Shown here piece after piece: positions 28,457-37,428 of a stretch of DNA of 64,000 nt (position 1 is its first letter; each line of letters begins with the position of its first letter). Source of the DNA: Candidatus Dormibacteria bacterium (lineage in GTDB: Bacteria; Chloroflexota; Dormibacteria; Aeolococcales; Bog-877); contig JBJKSO010000086.1 in assembly GCA_046703825.1 (NCBI GenBank), positions 16,142 to 80,141 of the forward strand, written 5' to 3'. The position numbers were made by a program, and so were the translations under genes. A model generated the notes under the pieces. The model was not told where the DNA came from. It saw nothing but the letters and a program-made list of their open reading frames with translations, and did not search any database.

Positions 28457-29250
28457 TGCCTGAGGTCCTCTACGGGCGGAATCCGGTCCTGGAGGCGCTC
28501 CGGGCTGGCCGGAGGCTGCGACGGTTGCTGCTGGCACCAGCACTGCACTCGGAGCCGCGTCTGGACGAGATCGGCACGCGCGCGGCCGAGGTAGGAGTGG
28601 AACCCGAGGTAGTTAGCCGGCGACGCCTTGCCGACATCGCCCACACAGAGCACCACCAGGGCGTGGCCGGCTACTTCGACGCACGGCAGTTGCCGGGCCT
28701 CGCGTTCTTGCGGCAGGCTCTGGTGGAGCCGGCCGCGGTACCGCCCCTGCTGGTATGCCTGGACGGAATCCAGGACCCGCAAAACCTCGGCGCCATCGCG
28801 CGGAGCGCGGAGGCGATGGGCGTCCGCGCCCTGGTCATCTCGAAGAACCGCACTGTGGCACCGACCGCGGCGGCCGTGAAGGCTTCAGCGGGTGCGCTCG
28901 AGCACTTGACCGTTGTCAGCGTTTCCAACCTGGTCGCGGCGATGGCGGAGATAGCCAAGGCCGGAGTCTTGCTCGTGGGACTGGAGCCGGATGGCGAGCA
29001 GCGTGTCGACCAAGCCGACCTGCGAGGCCCCGTGGCACTGGTGGTGGGCGCTGAGGGCACAGGTTTGCGCCCGCTGGTTCGCCGCAGCTGCGATCTCACT
29101 GTGAGGATCCCCATGGGAGGCAGGGTGGCGTCGCTGAACGCCTCGGCGGCACTGGCTCTAGTGCTCTACGAGACCCGCCGGCAGCAGCGGTTTGTCGGGC
29201 TCGCCGACCCAGAGGTCCGACCCTATACTTCAGCGGCCGCGCCGACGTAG
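28456..29250 (+). CDS. rlmB: 23S rRNA Gm2251 methyltransferase (TrmH family)
   Basis: YGRNPVLEAL, HQGV, DPQNLGAI.RS, GAEGTG, SLNAS. Confidence 0.94.
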   Translation: MPEVLYGRNPVLEALRAGRRLRRLLLAPALHSEPRLDEIGTRAAEVGVEPEVVSRRRLADIAHTEHHQGVAGYFDARQLPGLAFLRQALVEPAAVPPLLVCLDGIQDPQNLGAIARSAEAMGVRALVISKNRTVAPTAAAVKASAGALEHLTVVSVSNLVAAMAEIAKAGVLLVGLEPDGEQRVDQADLRGPVALVVGAEGTGLRPLVRRSCDLTVRIPMGGRVASLNASAALALVLYETRRQQRFVGLADPEVRPYTSAAAPT

Positions 29251-29312
29251 CTCAGTGGTAGAGCAGCTGTCTTGTAAACAGCTGGTCGGGAGTTCGACTC
29301 TCCCCGTCGGCT
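29241..29312 (+). tRNA. tRNA-Thr (TGT); CCA not encoded
   Basis: GCCGACG/CGTCGGC acceptor stem, GCTGT-CT-TGT-AA-ACAGC, GGGAG-TTCGACT-CTCCC. Confidence 0.95.
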
Positions 29313-29352
29313 CACCAAGTGGGTGAAAGCCAACCCCGAGAGCGAGGTTGGG

Positions 29353-29931: not shown

Positions 29932-30588
29932 GTGTCGCTGACACAGAAGTTCGTCATCCTGGGCAGCCTCTTGGCCGCTGCCCTCATTGCTTTGGCCGCG
30001 TACGTGTTCTTCTGGCTGGCCTACATCCCGCCCACCGTGCAGGCGAGCACCGTGGGCGGGACGCACATAAGGCTAGCCACGGTAGGGACGATCGACTACG
30101 GAGCAGAGCCGGACTGGGTCTCGTACTTGATCCGTCACGACGGCAAGTGGGTGCACTCCACCGTCTGGGAGGTCCCCGCGAACTCGACGATTCACGTCAC
30201 GGTCGACGAATACGACACGCAGACCGGTCTTCGTAACCCGTTCCTCAGCATGGTTCGGGGCACCTTGGGCGGCGTGGAGGTTGTCAACGGCACCCCTGTC
30301 CGGTATGTCAATCCGAACTACCCGGCGCACACATTCTCGGTGCCCGAGTTGGGGGTGAATGTCCCGCTGGTGGGCATCTCGAACAGCAGCTATCCCGGGG
30401 ATCTAACCAACCCCCACAACGACCACGTGACCATCACCTTCTCGTTCCGCACCTATGGCCCCGAGACGGTGCACTGGCAGTGCTTCGTGCCCTGCGCCGC
30501 TGGCTATCTGTATGGCAACGGCGGCCCGATGCAGACGGTGGGCTACATGGACGGCTACATAAAGATCGTTCCGAAGTCGCAACTCTAG
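29932..30588 (+). CDS. membrane-anchored cupredoxin (CoxB-periplasmic/sulfocyanin-like)
   Basis: N-terminal TM, VPANSTIHVTV, HTFSVP, WQCFVPC...GGPM...GYMDG copper-ligand-like pattern. Confidence 0.75.
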   Translation: MSLTQKFVILGSLLAAALIALAAYVFFWLAYIPPTVQASTVGGTHIRLATVGTIDYGAEPDWVSYLIRHDGKWVHSTVWEVPANSTIHVTVDEYDTQTGLRNPFLSMVRGTLGGVEVVNGTPVRYVNPNYPAHTFSVPELGVNVPLVGISNSSYPGDLTNPHNDHVTITFSFRTYGPETVHWQCFVPCAAGYLYGNGGPMQTVGYMDGYIKIVPKSQL

Positions 30589-30628: not shown

Positions 30629-31492
30629 TTGAGCGTTGGAGCCGAGAGGATCAGCCACAGCAACTGGCGAAACTTTCTTGTCCCGCACATCATCTACATG
30701 TGCTTCGCCATTGTTGGCGACCTTGCCATCGCGCTCGGATGGCTGCACATTCCGCCGGGGTTCATGGCCACCGGCTCGAGCGACCAAGTGGTCGAGACTC
30801 AGGTGCTGTCGATTCTGGCGTGGAATGTGGCGAGCGCAGTCATAATCTTCGGCGTCTATTACCTCATAACCTTCCGCGAGCGCGCCGATCGCCAGTCGAT
30901 CTGGATGGCACAGCCGCGCACCGCCTTTTGGATCCAGACGGGTTGGCTGACCTTCGCTGTTGTGCACGTGCTTTTCGCCGCTGGCTATGGCACCGCAATG
31001 TTGGAGGGACAGGTCCAGCCCAACCTGGTGGTGCCGGCTTCAGCCAAGACGCACGGAGTGCAGAAGCCGCTGGTTATTCAGGTGATTGGCCAGCAGTGGC
31101 AGTGGACCTACCGCTACCCGCAGTTTGGCGGCTTCGAGACACAGCAGCTGAGAATGCCCGAAGGCAGACTGATCCAGTTTGATGTGACCTCACTTGACGT
31201 GATCCACTCATTCTGGGCCTACCAGCTCGGGGTGAAGATCGACGCCAACCCCGGGGTGAACAACGTCGGATACGCCTTCGCGTTGCACACCGGAGTCGTG
31301 GATGTGCACTGCGCCGAGTTGTGCGGGATCTGGCACGGCTACATGACCGACGTGGGGCCCCAGGCTGGCCGGGTGCTGAGTTCCTCGCAATTCGCGTCCT
31401 GGGTTAGCTACGCCAAGGCGAAATACGGACCGGAGGACAAGTACCTGCCCAAGTACGCCCCGGTTTACTATCCACAACCCCTGACGTATTAG
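30629..31492 (+). CDS. coxB: cytochrome c oxidase subunit II (CuA)
   Basis: QQWQW, DVIHSFW, CAELCGIWHGYM; three N-terminal hydrophobic segments. Confidence 0.93.
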   Translation: MSVGAERISHSNWRNFLVPHIIYMCFAIVGDLAIALGWLHIPPGFMATGSSDQVVETQVLSILAWNVASAVIIFGVYYLITFRERADRQSIWMAQPRTAFWIQTGWLTFAVVHVLFAAGYGTAMLEGQVQPNLVVPASAKTHGVQKPLVIQVIGQQWQWTYRYPQFGGFETQQLRMPEGRLIQFDVTSLDVIHSFWAYQLGVKIDANPGVNNVGYAFALHTGVVDVHCAELCGIWHGYMTDVGPQAGRVLSSSQFASWVSYAKAKYGPEDKYLPKYAPVYYPQPLTY

Positions 31493-31569: not shown

Positions 31570-33483
31570 GTGAGTTCGACAGCTATCGCTAGCGGCCGGG
31601 CCCGGGGTGCCTTCGACCCGCGGAAGTTCTTTCTCGGGCAGAACCTGTTCACAGCCGCGGTCGTCGGAATCTGTGCGGGCCTCATCGGCTACTGGATCGG
31701 TGCCCAGATCGAGACGACTGACAACGGCACGGCCGGCATCATCCTTGGCTACCTGATAGGCGCCGCCGGCTTCCTGCTGACCCTGGGCTTCGCCAACGAC
31801 CCGATCCAACGGCTGCTGGGTCGGCCAAGCGCGAGCATCGTCAAGCACGCTGAGCGCTCCAACTGGACTGAGTACTTCGGCATCTCCATGGACCACAAGG
31901 TCGTCGGCATTCAGTTCGGCGTCGTGGTCCTGCTCATGTTCTTCACCGCCGGCTTCCAGGCGATGATGATCCGCACTGACCTCATGTTCCCGAGCGGCGG
32001 CCCCTGGCCTGCCGGGCAGTACATCGCGCTGGTGGGCCTGCATGGCCTGCTGATGATGTTCGTGGCCACGCTGATCATCGTCGGTGCATTCGGCAACTAC
32101 TTCGTGCCCCTGATGATCGGTGCCAAGCGGATGGCCTTCCCTCGCGCCGAGTCTCTGGCGCTCTGGCTTGCCCTTCTGGGCTGGATCATCCTCTACTCGC
32201 AGCTCTTCGCCGGCCCCGGCGCCGGCTTCCCGACGGGGTGGTACGGCTATGCCCCGCTGTCGGTCGAGGCTCGGGCGGGGATGGACGGCTATATCGTCGG
32301 CTTCGCCTTCATCGGGCTGGCCGCCAGCATCGCGGGGATCAACCTGCTGACGACGATCTTCGTTCTGCGGGCACCCGGAATGACATGGAGCCGCCTGCCG
32401 ATCTTCGTCTGGGCGATTCTCGCCACCGAGTTCCTCTCCGCCTTTGCCCCGCCTGTCTTGGCGTGTGCCCTGACGCTGGTCGGGTTCGACCGGTCGGTGC
32501 ACTCCTCCTTCTACATACCCGCGGCTGGCGGTAGCGCATATCTTTGGGAGGAGATGTTCTGGTGGTTTGGCCACCCAGAGGTCTACATCTTCATCCTGCC
32601 CGCGTTCGGAGTGGTCCTGGAGATCCTGCCGGTCTTCGCCCGCAAGCCACTGTTTGGCTACCGCCTCGCGGTAGCGGGTCTGATGGGTGTATCGATGATG
32701 AGCTGGTTCGTCTGGAACCACCACATCTTCACCAGCGGGATCGCGCCCGGGCTGCGTCCATACTTCATGACCGCGACCGAGTTCATCTCGATACCGACCG
32801 GCGTGGTGTTCCTAAGTTTGCTGGGCACGCTCTGGGGAGGCCGGATTCGCTTCAAACTGCCGCTGCTGTTCGCCCTGGCCATGATGTTCAACTTCCTCTT
32901 CGGCGGGGTGACCGGTGTATTCCTCTCCGACGTACCTCTGAACACCACGCTCCATGACAGCTTCTTCGTGGTCGGGCACTTCCACTACACGATCCTCGGC
33001 GGTGAAATCTTCGCGATGTACGCCGCCTGCTACTACTGGTTCCCCAAGATCACGGGGAAGATGCTGAACGAGCGGCTCGGCAAGATTCACTTCTGGACCG
33101 CCTTCATCTTCTTCAACACGACCTTCATGCCGATGTTCGCGGCGGGCTACATGGGGATGGTTCGGCGGGTGGTCGTCTACCAGCAAGACCTCCACGGACT
33201 GAACCTCTGGATCTCCGCAAATGCGTTCATGTTCGGGATCTCCAACTTGGTCTTCCTGATCAACCTGATCTACTCGTGGGCATTCCAGAAGGACCTGGCA
33301 CCGGTGAACCCGTGGGAGGCCCGGTCGCTTGAGTGGCAACTGCCCACGCCAATTCCGGCTGACAACTTCCAGCGCATCCCGACGATCGTGGGCAGCCCAT
33401 ACGACTACGGTGTCGGCGTGGGTACGCCAGTAGCCGAGTGGCCTAGTGGAGGGCAGGCACCAACGCCTGCACCAGTCAATTGA
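31570..33483 (+). CDS. coxA: heme-copper oxidase subunit I (A-family-like, N-terminally extended)
   Basis: DHK, LHG, WFGHPEVY, WNHH, GHFH, GM.RR. Confidence 0.97.
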   Translation: MSSTAIASGRARGAFDPRKFFLGQNLFTAAVVGICAGLIGYWIGAQIETTDNGTAGIILGYLIGAAGFLLTLGFANDPIQRLLGRPSASIVKHAERSNWTEYFGISMDHKVVGIQFGVVVLLMFFTAGFQAMMIRTDLMFPSGGPWPAGQYIALVGLHGLLMMFVATLIIVGAFGNYFVPLMIGAKRMAFPRAESLALWLALLGWIILYSQLFAGPGAGFPTGWYGYAPLSVEARAGMDGYIVGFAFIGLAASIAGINLLTTIFVLRAPGMTWSRLPIFVWAILATEFLSAFAPPVLACALTLVGFDRSVHSSFYIPAAGGSAYLWEEMFWWFGHPEVYIFILPAFGVVLEILPVFARKPLFGYRLAVAGLMGVSMMSWFVWNHHIFTSGIAPGLRPYFMTATEFISIPTGVVFLSLLGTLWGGRIRFKLPLLFALAMMFNFLFGGVTGVFLSDVPLNTTLHDSFFVVGHFHYTILGGEIFAMYAACYYWFPKITGKMLNERLGKIHFWTAFIFFNTTFMPMFAAGYMGMVRRVVVYQQDLHGLNLWISANAFMFGISNLVFLINLIYSWAFQKDLAPVNPWEARSLEWQLPTPIPADNFQRIPTIVGSPYDYGVGVGTPVAEWPSGGQAPTPAPVN

Positions 33484-34157
33484 AGAGTCGTTCCTCCGTC
33501 ACAACACCGGGGGTCTCGTCCGGGGTTCCCCTGCAGCCTGGAGGCTTTGTCCACACTCCGCAGCAAATCGCTCGGATTCCGGTGGTGGGCGGATGGCTTC
33601 TGACCGGGGCCGATCTGTTCTTCACGGTGCCGCTCTTCTTCGCATTCTTTTTCCTGCAGCAAGCGAACGAGAACAACTCGTGGCAGCCGAAGGGGGTGCA
33701 CCCACCGGATCTGGCGATCGGAACCCTCTGCATGGCACTGGTCGTCGCCGGTGTAGGCGTAGTTCATTGGGCGCTGCCTCGGCTCAACTCCCAAGAGGGC
33801 CTGGCCAGCTTCGTCCTCCCGGCACGGGTTGGGGCGCTGGCAATGATCGGCGGCGTGGTCGTCGAGATCTGGCAGCTCTCCCATCTGGGCTTTGGGATCT
33901 CCGATGGCTCGTACGCGAGTGCCTTCATCGCCATGCAGGTGATCCTGATCATCCACGTGGCGATAACCGCGCTTTGGGTGATCAGCCTGGCCAACCGGGC
34001 CGCGTACGAGGCACGCCACCCGATTGTGGCGCCCGACGACGATCAACTGGTCGAGACACCGACCCCCATATCCGCCCTCGGCTACTCGTATTTGTGGTGG
34101 GGGGTATGGATCGGTGGTGTGTTTGCACTGGCTTGGGTGGTCGGCTACTTCCTGTAG
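33480..34157 (+). CDS. coxC: heme-copper oxidase subunit III-like
   Basis: Five TMs, WQP, GSYASAF...H; TTGA-coupled to coxA. Confidence 0.75.
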   Translation: MKSRSSVTTPGVSSGVPLQPGGFVHTPQQIARIPVVGGWLLTGADLFFTVPLFFAFFFLQQANENNSWQPKGVHPPDLAIGTLCMALVVAGVGVVHWALPRLNSQEGLASFVLPARVGALAMIGGVVVEIWQLSHLGFGISDGSYASAFIAMQVILIIHVAITALWVISLANRAAYEARHPIVAPDDDQLVETPTPISALGYSYLWWGVWIGGVFALAWVVGYFL

Positions 34158-34360
34158 CAGGGATATCCGGCCTTGGGGCCAGCGGCGGCAAGCTGGATCT
34201 TGAGGGAGTCGCTTGGCACTGAGGAGCCGGTCCGTGGCGGGTGGTGGGCCTTTTGGCGGCTGAGCCTGCGGTGGCTGCGGGCGCACCCGGGAGCGCCGAC
34301 GGCCAGAGTGCGAGGGCAGTAGACTCGGCTCTGGACGGCTGGGGCAACACCGCTAGGAGC

Positions 34361-35266
34361 ATGGGAGGCGCAATGCTGGCAATTTCGCTCGTGCGCGGAC
34401 GGCCTGCGCGAGCGGTCATCGCGGACTACCTGAGCCTGATGAAGCCTGGAGTCCTGAGCCTCTTGGTCGTGACCGAACTGCTCGCCATGGTCACCGCTGC
34501 ACGCGGGTGGCCGGGCTGGGGGCTCACCCTCATCGCCCTCGCCGCAGGATGCCTCGCGGCCGGCGGCGCGGCGGCGATCAACTGTTGGTTCGATCGGGAC
34601 ATCGACGCGGTGATGGGGAGGACGCGCAGCCGTCCAGTACCGGCGGGTCGCATCCAGCCGGCGGCGGCGCTGGTCTTCGGAACCGTTTTGGCCACTGCCG
34701 GTGTGGTGGTCTTCTTTGTCTTCGTCAACCCGCTGGCCGCCGGGCTCGCCCTCTTCGGCGGCGTCTTTTACGTGTGCGTCTACACCTTCTGGCTGAAGCG
34801 AGCCACGGCCCAGAACATCGTCATCGGTGGGGCTGCGGGGGCGATGCCGCCACTGGTCGGCTGGGCGGCGGTCACCCATTCCCTTTCCCCGGTGGCGATC
34901 GGACTCTTCGTGGTCATATTTCTGTGGACGCCCCCCCACTTCTGGGCGCTCTCCCTGATCGTGCGACGGGACTACGCCGCGGTGTCGGTTCCGATGCGCT
35001 CGGTGGCCCTCGGGGTTAAGCGAACCCGCCGGGGGATCGTTGCCTACGCCATCCTGCTGCTGGCGGCCAGTTGCAGTCTCGGAATTTGGCTCGGGGCGGG
35101 GGAGGTGGTGCTGGCGCTGCTGACGGGAGTGCCACTCTTGGCGATGGGGCTGGTCGTGATGCGGGAGGGGGCGTCGATGCGTTGGGCACGGCGCCTGTTC
35201 CAGTTCTCGATCCTCTATCTCTTCCTGTTCTTTGCCGGAACTGCGGCGGTCGCAGTACTGCGCTAG
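34361..35266 (+). CDS. cyoE: protoheme IX farnesyltransferase (heme O synthase); start 34361 or 34373
   Basis: LMKP, N..DRDID..M.RT..RP, NIVIGGAAGA.PPLVGW, LWTPPHFWAL. Confidence 0.95.
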   Translation: MGGAMLAISLVRGRPARAVIADYLSLMKPGVLSLLVVTELLAMVTAARGWPGWGLTLIALAAGCLAAGGAAAINCWFDRDIDAVMGRTRSRPVPAGRIQPAAALVFGTVLATAGVVVFFVFVNPLAAGLALFGGVFYVCVYTFWLKRATAQNIVIGGAAGAMPPLVGWAAVTHSLSPVAIGLFVVIFLWTPPHFWALSLIVRRDYAAVSVPMRSVALGVKRTRRGIVAYAILLLAASCSLGIWLGAGEVVLALLTGVPLLAMGLVVMREGASMRWARRLFQFSILYLFLFFAGTAAVAVLR

Positions 35267-35279
35267 CCGTCTCGACGGC

Positions 35280-35720
35280 TCACCGGACGACCACCACCTT
35301 GCCCAGCATCCCGAGGGTCTCGTGCGGAATGCAGAAGTATTTGTAGACTCCGGGCGCCGTGAACTTGACCTTGGCCGAGTGACCGGGCGGTAGCGGGTGG
35401 TCCCAGCCGCGGCCGCCCTTGGGGATGGACGCGTCGGCCGGATTGGCCGCCAATTGCGGCTCATCGGTGGTGGTGTGGGCGAGGTTGTTGGTCACGTTGT
35501 GCCAGGTGACCGTGCCGCCCACCTTAAGACAGACCGTTGCCGGCGAAAACCTGAGGCTCTCGTTGGCGTCCACCACCGCCGACCTGGCCGCCGTTGCGGC
35601 TGTGCAGCTGCCTATGCGAGAAGGCCCGCTGGAGCGGGCGGGCTGGGAGGGGCCGCCGCATCCAGCGAGGACGGTCGCGGCCAGTAGGAGCGGAGCGGCT
35701 GCGGCTGCGGCGCGCTGCAC
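35280..35720 (-). CDS. plastocyanin/azurin-type blue copper lipoprotein
   Basis: Lipobox LAGC; FSP, VTWHN, upstream His (AHT) and YFCIPHETLGM type-1 Cu ligands. Confidence 0.88.
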   Translation of the reverse strand: MQRAAAAAAPLLLAATVLAGCGGPSQPARSSGPSRIGSCTAATAARSAVVDANESLRFSPATVCLKVGGTVTWHNVTNNLAHTTTDEPQLAANPADASIPKGGRGWDHPLPPGHSAKVKFTAPGVYKYFCIPHETLGMLGKVVVVR

Positions 35721-35725
35721 GGTTA

Positions 35726-36316
35726 CTACTTGAGCGGCGACTGGCCGAGCCCGATGACGCCACAGGCGGCCGACGAGGGCACATGGTTGGGCGTCTGCAC
35801 CCACACCGACCAGGCCGAAAAGCGCAGATCCGTCACGCCAAGCAGCTCGTTGCTCATCTGGACGGTTCCGCTCGCGGACGAGCGTCCCGTCGCCGCCCGG
35901 CGGGCGTTCTGGGGCAGATCCCCCGCACAAGAACCCTCGGGCACCAGCCACGCACGCACTAGCTGCCTTGCCGGCAATCTCTCGAGCGTCAATGTGAGCA
36001 CCAGCACGTGCCCCTGACGGTACCAGACGAGCCGGACCTCTCCGCTAGCCAGGCTGCCTGCGGTCGGCTTGATGGCGATCAGGACTGCATGCCGGTCTGG
36101 CAGCAACGGGGTGCTGCCCGCGCCCACCAGCGCGAGGATGGTCCAGATCCCGGCACCTACTACGGCCACCGCGGCAATCCATCTAAGGAGCAGGTGGCGG
36201 AACTCCTGCGGAGATCTCGGCCTCGGAAACGGCCTCATGAACGGCCGAGCCATGTAGCGAGGGCGATGCCCGTTGTGCGAGTGCCCGGGCCACTGGTTCG
36301 GAGGTTGCGAACTCAC
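35726..36316 (-). CDS. membrane-anchored protein with a Cu/Zn-SOD/CHRD-like beta-sandwich lacking His ligands
   Basis: One TM, then GEVRL...LTLERLP...GSC...ACGVIG. Confidence 0.55.
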   Translation of the reverse strand: MSSQPPNQWPGHSHNGHRPRYMARPFMRPFPRPRSPQEFRHLLLRWIAAVAVVGAGIWTILALVGAGSTPLLPDRHAVLIAIKPTAGSLASGEVRLVWYRQGHVLVLTLTLERLPARQLVRAWLVPEGSCAGDLPQNARRAATGRSSASGTVQMSNELLGVTDLRFSAWSVWVQTPNHVPSSAACGVIGLGQSPLK

Positions 36317-36375
36317 GGCGTTGAATTATCCGAGGATGGACTCCGGAAGCAGATCGCCGGAGACGCTCGCTTGGC

Positions 36376-37311
36376 CTAGGGCGAGATCATCCGCTCCGAG
36401 GGTCCCCCGCCTTCGTCGAAGGCCCCCGCCTGGTTGGCTTCTCGGAACTCCCTCGAGAGGGCTTCGGTCTGCTCCTCGTCCGCCTTCATCCAGCGGTAAA
36501 CCACGACGTCCAGCATGATCTCGAGGGGGAGGCCGGCGGGCACCCACGCGACGCCGGCTCCCCACTGCTGGTCGGTGAGCGCGGAGATTCCGAGGGGCCG
36601 GTGGACCTCATGGAGGTAGACCGCGTACCACGCGTGTGATGACAGTCCCAGGGGGAAAGCGACCATCCACATGCTAGTTGCGCCGCAGACGATGTAAGCG
36701 GTCATCTGCCAGGGGGTCATGCGGTGCCGCAGCGGTGGGCTGTCCACCAGTAGCGACCAGTACACGAGCCCGCCCAGCAACATGGTCAGGTGCTCAAAGT
36801 CGTGGAGCGTCTGGTTGGCAAGGCTCAGGTCGTAAAGGGTCGGGATGTGCCAGGACCAGAAGGTGAGAGCCATGGCCGCCACACCCACCTGGGGACGCCG
36901 GAAGAACCCGCCGAAGGACCGCACCGGCGACTTCCGGAAGAAGCGGAGCGCAATCGGAGCGATCGCCCGCCGCCACCGCAGCGGCAGGCCGCGCCACATC
37001 GGGGTCCACGGGGCCCCGATGATCAGTAGCGGAGCTACCACCATCTGCAGCATGCAGTGTTGGATCATGTGCATGAAGAAGAGGTAGTAGGAGAGGTAGT
37101 CGATCGGCGACTCGAGCGCCACCAGGGTCGCGGCGAGGCCGGCGTAGAAGGCCAATCCGCGCCACAAGTGCTCCCGGTCCCCGGGCCGGCGTGCCCACGC
37201 GACCTGCCTTTGTCCCCGCCAGTAGAGGAATCCGCTCACGATTACCGGGATCCAGACGCCTGGCTCGAGTGAGTATCCGTAGAGGTGGGTCCAAGGCGCG
37301 AGGAAGCTCAT
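36376..37311 (-). CDS. ctaG: cytochrome c oxidase assembly factor (Caa3_CtaG family)
   Basis: SPID, HMIQH, WHIP.LYD, HDFEH, DQQWG. Confidence 0.92.
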   Translation of the reverse strand: MSFLAPWTHLYGYSLEPGVWIPVIVSGFLYWRGQRQVAWARRPGDREHLWRGLAFYAGLAATLVALESPIDYLSYYLFFMHMIQHCMLQMVVAPLLIIGAPWTPMWRGLPLRWRRAIAPIALRFFRKSPVRSFGGFFRRPQVGVAAMALTFWSWHIPTLYDLSLANQTLHDFEHLTMLLGGLVYWSLLVDSPPLRHRMTPWQMTAYIVCGATSMWMVAFPLGLSSHAWYAVYLHEVHRPLGISALTDQQWGAGVAWVPAGLPLEIMLDVVVYRWMKADEEQTEALSREFREANQAGAFDEGGGPSERMISP

Positions 37312-37428
37312 CGCTCCGTGCCCCAGCGAAGGCAACCCCAGTCCCGCTTGCGTCGCTCGGATAGATCTGAGCGGCGATACCCCACGCCGTTCCTCCCGCC
37401 GGTACCGCCTACTGCACTCGCCAGAGAG

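What the first reader, a model, noticed from the sequence alone, without database searches (positions are those of the whole stretch)
31570..33483. Oxidase subunit I lacks both the D-channel Asp and the K-channel Lys
Seen: the A1 signature GHPEVY and all six His ligands are intact, but GAxDMAFPRxNN reads GAKRMAFPRAES and the helix VIII PTGxK reads TEFISIPTGVV (Lys lost, a new Glu upstream); two extra N-terminal TMs are present. From memory (unverified), the Acidithiobacillus ferrooxidans rus-operon CoxA has a similar TExxSIPTG helix, N-terminal extension and three-TM CoxB. Inference: an acidophile-type oxidase with rewired proton pathways in an unrelated monoderm lineage, suggesting an acidic habitat.
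Basis: partly seen in the sequence, partly recalled or inferred. Interest (0 to 1): 0.7.

Follow-up and report, generated by a model that had tools for sequence, protein, structure and literature searches.

The report
Oxidase with rebuilt proton entry channels
This gene encodes the catalytic subunit of a second respiratory oxidase that lacks both textbook proton-entry residues; the missing lysine marks an already catalogued branch, while the entry acid of the other channel sits seven residues further in, so the enzyme likely still reduces oxygen and pumps protons, as a known laboratory double mutant does.

Summary
Observation confirmed. Against E. coli CyoB, Asp135 is Arg187, Asn142 is Glu194, Lys362 is Val413 and Met353 is Glu404; six His, Glu286 and Tyr288 are intact; there are two extra N-terminal helices. 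These are clade traits, not errors: Glu194 in 117 of 119 homologues, Glu404 in 119, Lys in none.

The recollection about A. ferrooxidans is right (same helix VIII motif, three-helix CoxB). But the Lys-less 2TM clade is published and already lists Ca. Dormibacter. The query sits in a soil Chloroflexota/Actinomycetota branch, apart from Acidithiobacillus (40% identity), and Asp loss looks independent (AU p 8e-5).

It moves the D-channel carboxylate inward, like the D132N/N139D mutant that pumps; Acidithiobacillus has no such acid. The published survey says the D-channel is unchanged in this clade, and I found no paper reporting the swap.

An acidic habitat is not shown: Lys-less relatives include non-acidophiles. 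The genome also holds a canonical oxidase; no cytochrome c was found. This scan reported the same variant before in actinobacterial genomes. Verdict: new variant of a known kind, biochemically untested.

The parts
31570..33483 (+). coxA: family-A heme-copper oxidase subunit I, 637 aa, 12 core helices plus 2 N-terminal helices
31645..31791 (+). two extra N-terminal transmembrane helices (residues 26-46 and 54-74), the '2TM' trait
32128..32130 (+). Arg187 in place of the D-channel entry Asp (E. coli D135; R. sphaeroides D132)
   Evidence: R in 115 of 119 homologues
32149..32151 (+). Glu194 in place of the D-channel Asn (E. coli N142; R. sphaeroides N139): inferred relocated entry carboxylate
   Evidence: E in 117 of 119 homologues
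32569..32586 (+). GHPEVY: CuB ligand His335, Glu337 (E286) and cross-link Tyr339, all intact
   Evidence: H, E and Y each 119 of 119
32779..32781 (+). Glu404 in helix VIII (E. coli M353), with Ser407 (A356): signature of the Lys-less clade
   Evidence: 119 of 119; 121 of 121 in the Acidiferrobacter-centred set
32806..32808 (+). Val413 in place of the K-channel Lys362
   Evidence: no Lys in 119 homologues
30629..31492 (+). coxB: subunit II, three hydrophobic segments, intact CuA motif, no cytochrome c domain; Gln103 where the K-channel entry Glu normally lies
29932..30588 (+). membrane-anchored cupredoxin-like protein of no Pfam family, with invariant H133, H165, C184, C188, M200, M206; candidate electron donor or accessory subunit (inferred)
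   Evidence: (top fold match rusticyanin 1rcy, E 5.5e-5, low TM-score 0.35)
33480..34157 (+). coxC: short, divergent subunit III-like protein, five hydrophobic segments
   Evidence: (weak QoxC/CyoC hits, E 3.5e-5 and 1.2e-4)
34241..35266 (+). ctaB heme O synthase
   Evidence: above the curated cut-off
35280..35951 (-). plastocyanin/azurin-type blue copper protein, convergent with the operon (true start probably later than the ORF call)
   Evidence: PF00127 E 9e-14
36376..37335 (-). caa3_CtaG copper assembly factor
   Evidence: PF09678 E 8e-49

Best explanation
This is the catalytic subunit of a second, CuA-type family-A oxidase that likely reduces oxygen and likely takes up its protons through a rebuilt D-channel in which Glu194 replaces the lost entry Asp, while the classical K-channel is predicted to be shut. 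Shown: the active-site ligands, Glu337 and Tyr339 are intact; D135R, N142E, K362V, S299L and the subunit II Glu-to-Gln change are real and conserved in the branch. Inferred: Glu194 is the first proton acceptor, with Arg187 shaping the channel mouth; protons pass Asn176 and Asn258 to Glu337 and from there to the heme-CuB site and the pump site; the upper channel is retuned (polar residue lost at 201, Ser/Thr gained at residue 167); the new polar set Glu404, Ser407, Asn441, Thr474 makes up for the lost Lys as a local proton store or charge compensator near the high-spin heme. Electrons probably come from a Rieske/cytochrome b complex through copper proteins, since no cytochrome c was found. It is an accessory oxidase beside a canonical one.
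For: Residue map and conservation. D132N/N139D restores full pumping in R. sphaeroides (PMC7196763, passage), and moving the Asp inward restores function in E. coli bo3 and R. sphaeroides (PMC3840923, passage). Arg, Gly or Asn all occur at the old entry site but almost always with Glu at 142 (133 R/E, 3 G/E, 1 R/H), so the Glu is the constant element. The sister branch keeps Asp/Asn, so the swap is derived and was then fixed. The oxygen-reductase hallmark Tyr is present (PMC11214002, passages). The A. ferrooxidans relative is the rus-operon aa3 oxidase (its role in iron respiration is established knowledge). Intact operon with ctaB and ctaG. PF00034, PF13442 and PF01578 not found in the 90.8% complete genome; Rieske plus cytochrome b found.
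Against: No member has been assayed as far as my searches show. The laboratory precedent has Asn, not Arg, at 132, Asp, not Glu, at 139, and an intact K-channel. K-channel mutants of ordinary A-type enzymes are severely inhibited (T316K 15% of wild type), so a D-only enzyme needs a compensation that I can only infer. An extra acid at 139 alone uncouples pumping. Acidithiobacillus CoxA has no acid at either D-channel site yet is a working oxidase, so this clade may have a proton route that needs neither channel. The model returned no coordinates, so side-chain positions were not measured; pLDDT is low at 333-338 and 454-462. Missing cytochrome c may be an assembly gap.
Confidence: 0.55

Rival explanations
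1. The enzyme reduces oxygen but does not pump protons. It would serve as a low-yield oxidase, useful where the pH gradient is steep or for fast oxygen removal, which is closest to the first reader's acidophile reading.
For: An acid at position 139 uncouples pumping in three enzymes. The entry Asp is lost separately in lineages named as acidophiles: Acidithiobacillus, Acidiferrobacter, Acidihalobacter, Sulfobacillus, Ferroacidibacillus; a sequence clustered with a Thermoplasmataceae record shows Arg/Glu on another branch. All 14 class-level relatives that carry it also have at least one further subunit I match. Kdp is present, a weak and common trait.
Against: Glu337 and the inner Asn residues are invariant; the double change matches the recoupled rather than the uncoupled mutant; the closest named relatives are Gaiellaceae, Solirubrobacterales, Acidimicrobiaceae and Dormibacteria MAGs with no pH data.
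Confidence: 0.27
2. Glu404, Ser407, Asn441 and Thr474 form a new proton pathway to the active site, replacing the K-channel in the whole Lys-less clade, possibly fed from the outer side of the membrane.
For: In 320 rows, 251 have Glu353 without Lys and 69 have Lys without Glu353, none both or neither; the four polar residues are near-invariant in all three Lys-less groups and non-polar in canonical enzymes; Acidithiobacillus lacks both classical entries but keeps this set.
Against: The 320 rows were gathered by similarity and are kin, so the pairing may be one event; among 150 broader representatives many Lys-less enzymes lack the Glu. Glu404 lies nine residues before the Lys position and cannot be its positional substitute. 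A candidate His partner in subunit II is not conserved. No geometry was available.
Confidence: 0.14
3. The new helix VIII Glu marks a shift to nitric oxide reduction, as in HCO-derived NO reductases.
For: NO reductases often lack the classical channels and carry extra Glu residues (PMC11214002, passages).
Against: The cross-link Tyr and three CuB His are present in 119 of 119 homologues; the described NOR families lack that Tyr; the tree nests the protein in family A.
Confidence: 0.03
4. The gene is a decaying duplicate or a sequencing artefact.
For: A canonical oxidase is present in the same genome and the variant is patchy: 14 of 46 other genomes of the class.
Against: Open frame, intact operon, same substitutions across two phyla.
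Confidence: 0.01

Closest known systems
COX1 subclade '2TM Chloroflexi & Actinobacteria' (Degli Esposti et al. 2021, PMC8239418, Suppl. Table 1 and Fig. S7a; lists Ca. Dormibacter, Acidimicrobium, Acidithrix)
   Same: Two extra N-terminal helices, HPEVY, Lys354 (Paracoccus numbering) replaced, Ser291 replaced, subunit II Glu78 replaced, caa3_CtaG nearby, same taxa.
   Different: That survey states no significant change in the D-channel (Fig. S9c legend; preprint passage), whereas this branch has Asp-to-Arg plus Asn-to-Glu. The parts I read do not list the helix VIII Glu. No biochemistry.
rus-operon aa3 oxidase CoxBACD of Acidithiobacillus ferrooxidans and Acidiferrobacter thiooxydans
   Same: Glu at Met353, Ser at Ala356, Lys362 lost, N-terminal extension, three-helix subunit II, cupredoxin gene just before coxB.
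   Different: 40% identity; separate branch of the Lys-less clade; D-channel sites are Asn or Thr and Leu with no acid, and Asn124 is Tyr; the upstream copper protein has no significant BLASTP match to the rus-operon proteins; no cyc2, cyc1 or rus genes in this operon.
D132N/N139D double mutant of Rhodobacter sphaeroides aa3 oxidase and second-site D135N revertants of E. coli bo3
   Same: Entry carboxylate moved seven residues inward.
   Different: Natural; Arg and Glu rather than Asn and Asp; combined with loss of the K-channel Lys and other polar swaps.
Canonical A1 oxidases (R. sphaeroides, P. denitrificans, Mycobacterium aa3)
   Same: Fold (Foldseek TM 0.73-0.76 by query length), metal ligands, GHPEVY, Mg-site His-Asp, Arg pair.
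   Different: They keep Asp132, Asn139, Ser299 and Lys362: 69 of 80 named loci have Lys, all with Asp/Asn.

Membership tests
Heme-copper oxygen reductase | Six His ligands and the helix VI cross-link Tyr | tested here: met
Heme-copper oxygen reductase | Reduces O2 to water | not testable with these tools
   needs an assay
Family A | Sequence and fold group with family A, CuA-type subunit II | tested here: met
Canonical type A1 | Glu in HPEVY of helix VI | tested here: met
   E337
Canonical type A1 | D-channel entry Asp and Asn139 | tested here: not met
   R187, E194
Canonical type A1 | K-channel Lys, Ser299 and subunit II Glu | tested here: not met
   V413, L350; CoxB Q103
'2TM Chloroflexi & Actinobacteria' COX1 subclade | Two extra N-terminal helices | tested here: met
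'2TM Chloroflexi & Actinobacteria' COX1 subclade | HPEVY with no canonical K-channel; caa3_CtaG present | tested here: met
'2TM Chloroflexi & Actinobacteria' COX1 subclade | Groups with the paper's own reference accessions (e.g. PZR78255, WP_015799102) | not tested
   those records were not retrieved; the tree holds other Dormibacteria and Acidimicrobiaceae records
'2TM Chloroflexi & Actinobacteria' COX1 subclade | D-channel unchanged (a statement of the paper, not used in its table to define the subclade) | tested here: not met
rus-operon CoxA of acidophilic Proteobacteria | Branches with Acidithiobacillus/Acidiferrobacter CoxA | tested here: not met
rus-operon CoxA of acidophilic Proteobacteria | Encoded with cyc2, cyc1, AcoP and rusticyanin | tested here: not met
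HCO-derived nitric oxide reductases | Loss of the cross-link Tyr | tested here: not met
   Y339 kept; criterion from PMC11214002

The most novel reading that the evidence does not exclude
A widespread soil branch of family-A oxidases has abandoned both textbook proton entries and runs on a new two-route design: a D-channel gated by an inward Glu under an Arg, plus a new Glu/Ser/Asn/Thr pathway on helices VIII-X that replaces the K-channel. It is fed by an undescribed two-Cys cupredoxin in a chain with no cytochrome c. The helix VIII route would also explain how the Acidithiobacillus oxidase works with neither classical entry.
Probability: 0.2. Interest if true: 0.78.

Novelty: new variant of a known kind. 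Interest (0 to 1): 0.5.

Why it matters
Family-A oxidases are defined by two proton channels, and K-channel or D-entry mutants are crippled in model enzymes. A conserved natural branch that has replaced both entry residues is a ready test of whether one channel suffices, whether a relocated carboxylate keeps pumping coupled, and how the iron-oxidiser oxidase obtains protons. It also corrects a published statement that the D-channel is unchanged in this clade, and it warns that database labels calling these proteins 'cbb3-type' are wrong. The clade itself and its Lys loss are not new.

Tried and rejected
Pairing of Glu404 with a His in a subunit II helix: rejected, the His is only in the query. 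Single origin of all Asp-less forms: rejected (42 of the 97 tree rows, quick LG+G4 tree; the group was named after I had seen the tree). Homology of the upstream copper protein to rus-operon proteins: no significant BLASTP hit. Plasmid collection: best hits at most 43% identical among the 30 listed of 1166 records, none useful. Sequencing runs for habitat or expression: none was listed, which is no evidence either way. The named-genome scan used a general helix VI pattern and stopped at 600 stretches, so it samples the range and does not map it. The mixture-model tree did not finish; a quick tree was used. The complex prediction for subunit II with the copper protein was not available, so binding is untested. 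The primary papers of Branden 2006 and Castelle 2008 are not held. ESM Atlas gave only unnamed clusters, one with PF00116 in 14% of members. Nitric oxide reductase and pseudogene readings were rejected, see rivals.

Full report
1. Observation. The ORF at 31570-33483 (+) encodes 637 residues without a stop. It is a family-A heme-copper oxidase subunit I: PF00115 E 1.6e-125, best solved relatives the mycobacterial aa3 enzymes, fold matching R. sphaeroides and others. I numbered it against E. coli CyoB. Asp135 is Arg187, Asn142 is Glu194, Ser299 is Leu350, Met353 is Glu404, Ala356 is Ser407 and Lys362 is Val413. The six His, Glu337, Tyr339, Asn176, Thr410 and the Arg pair are kept. Two extra N-terminal helices appear in hydropathy and in the model. 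R. sphaeroides numbers (D132, N139) come from the cited papers and established usage.

2. Conservation. Of the 119 non-self homologues listed, position 135 is Arg in 115, Gly in 3 and a gap in 1; position 142 is Glu in 117; position 353 is Glu in 119; none has Lys362. Named hits are Dormibacteria, Gaiellaceae, Solirubrobacterales, Acidimicrobiaceae and Streptosporangiaceae records. The host lineage, Dormibacteria, is inferred from the names of the closest hits. Of 46 other genomes of the window's class, 14 carry the variant (residue states), and all 14 have at least one more subunit I match. The window's genome has a canonical second oxidase on another contig.

3. Context. The operon is cupredoxin-like gene, coxB, coxA, coxC, ctaB, with a blue copper protein and caa3_CtaG on the opposite strand. 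CoxB has three hydrophobic segments, an intact CuA motif and no cytochrome c domain; Gln103 stands where the K-channel entry Glu is expected and is kept in at least 90% of 21 aligned rows. The upstream protein folds as a beta-sandwich with one helix anchor; its best fold matches are rusticyanin and COX2, with low TM-scores. No PF00034, PF13442 or PF01578 match was found in the 90.8% complete genome, while Rieske and cytochrome b genes were.

4. Test of the acidophile comparison. A. ferrooxidans CoxA was retrieved by name (P0538). It has Glu at 353, Ile at 362, and Asn, Leu and Tyr at the D-channel positions 135, 142 and 124; a rus-operon locus with 99% identical CoxA has a three-helix CoxB. 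Identity to the query is 40%. All 121 rows of the Acidiferrobacter-centred set have Glu353 and none has Lys (the middle of that listing was cut from view, the tallies were shown). Most of them keep Asp/Asn, among them Rhodobacteraceae, Jiangellaceae, Anaerolineae and Dehalococcoidia records.

5. Phylogeny. In a quick LG+G4 tree of 97 rows chosen from the fetched sets, a Lys-less, Glu353 clade of 71 rows has support 99. Within it the query's branch (34 rows, 99; Glu at 142 throughout) is sister to an Asp/Asn-keeping group that includes two Actinomycetota records. Acidithiobacillus, Acidiferrobacter, Acidihalobacter, Sulfobacillus and Ferroacidibacillus lie in the other half, among Asp/Asn-keeping rows. 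Holding all Asp-less rows together is rejected (p-AU 7.9e-5, 42 rows; group named after seeing the tree). Against a tidy picture: seven further Glu353 rows form a separate branch, and among 150 broad representatives many Lys-less proteins lack the Glu, so the perfect 251 to 69 split reflects a related sample.

6. What is published. PMC8239418 (I read the first seventh of the main text, search passages, all of Suppl. Table 1, parts 3, 6 and 7 of Data Sheet 2 and search passages in it) lists a '2TM Chloroflexi & Actinobacteria' subclade including Ca. Dormibacter, with HPEVY, no canonical K-channel and caa3_CtaG. Its Fig. S9c legend says no significant D-channel change was seen. The preprint 10.1101/2020.03.01.968255 (passages) says the D-channel is essentially conserved and names non-acidophilic carriers such as Thioclava; its supplements, including the channel figure S10, are closed and could bear on novelty, as could the 2020 review by the same author, which I did not see. 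Searches of the held library returned no paper describing the Asp-to-Arg/Asn-to-Glu pair or the helix VIII Glu; most subscription papers are not covered. This scan's earlier notes reported the same variant in actinobacterial genomes; I had reached that reading before opening them, and they are not independent support.

7. Mechanism. Passages in PMC7196763 and PMC3840923 report that losing Asp132 cripples proton uptake, that N139D alone uncouples pumping, and that the D132N/N139D pair restores it; the primary papers were not available. The natural Arg187/Glu194 pair has the same layout. The branch also loses the polar residue at 201 and gains Ser/Thr at residue 167, Asn/Gln before the His-His pair and Ser453, while the whole Lys-less clade gains Gln115, Glu404, Ser407, Asn441 and Thr474. 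Coordinated, fixed polar swaps fit a retuned working channel better than decay. I put a coupled enzyme fed by the rebuilt D-channel at 0.55, a non-pumping oxidase at 0.27 and a new helix VIII route as the main path at 0.14. The Tyr argues against nitric oxide reduction (PMC11214002, passages). None of these steps was measured.

8. Habitat. Lys loss is not an acid marker. Asp loss recurs in named acidophile lineages, which is weak support. Dormibacteria have been recovered from acid mine drainage but are not widely reported there, and the closest relative of that MAG came from permafrost (PMC8357290, passages); soils in another survey spanned pH 3.3 to 9.8 (bioRxiv 10.1101/647651, passages). 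The habitat of this genome remains open.

9. Verdict. Real, conserved and intact. It is a member of a catalogued Lys-less clade with an apparently undescribed rebuilt D-channel: a new variant of a known kind, interest 0.5.

Noticed in passing
window 29932-30588 (+): Membrane-anchored cupredoxin-like protein of no Pfam or NCBIfam family, 2999 homologues, with invariant H133, H165, C184-x3-C188, M200 and M206 in 47 aligned rows. It was found beside the oxidase in 23 of 24 Arg/Gly/Asn-Glu loci examined (the other is cut by a contig end) and in 0 of 5 YS-type Lys-less loci. A second copy lies on contig C98.
   Followed up: partly
G000:C115:16309-22842 (L147, L151, L153, L154): Rieske and cytochrome b genes flanked by two CydA-like genes, with a blue copper protein nearby; no class I cytochrome c or assembly gene found in the genome.
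   Followed up: partly
L001 (G000:C102:1405-5745): Second oxidase with Asp, Asn and Lys intact, YSHPAVY (A2-type), followed by a gene that looks like heme A synthase by its motifs.
   Followed up: partly
P0209, cluster with a Thermoplasmataceae record: A long subunit I on a separate Lys-less, Glu353 branch also shows Arg and Glu at the two D-channel sites, a possible independent origin; its branch is long.
   Followed up: partly
P0538, P0275, P0433, P0470, P0506: Oxidases of named acidophilic iron oxidisers mostly lack any acid at both D-channel sites, against the published statement that their D-channel is conserved.
   Followed up: partly
names: NCBI labels many of these family-A proteins 'cbb3-type subunit I'; reports of cbb3 oxidases in Dormibacteria MAGs (e.g. 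bioRxiv 10.1101/647651, passage) may deserve rechecking.
   Followed up: no
window 29241-29313 (+) and 35280-37335 (-): tRNA-Thr lies 620 bases before the operon. The operon has slightly lower GC (0.60-0.63 against 0.687 for the genome). In two same-family genomes the operon also lies next to relA, but without the blue-copper/ctaG block seen here.
   Followed up: partly
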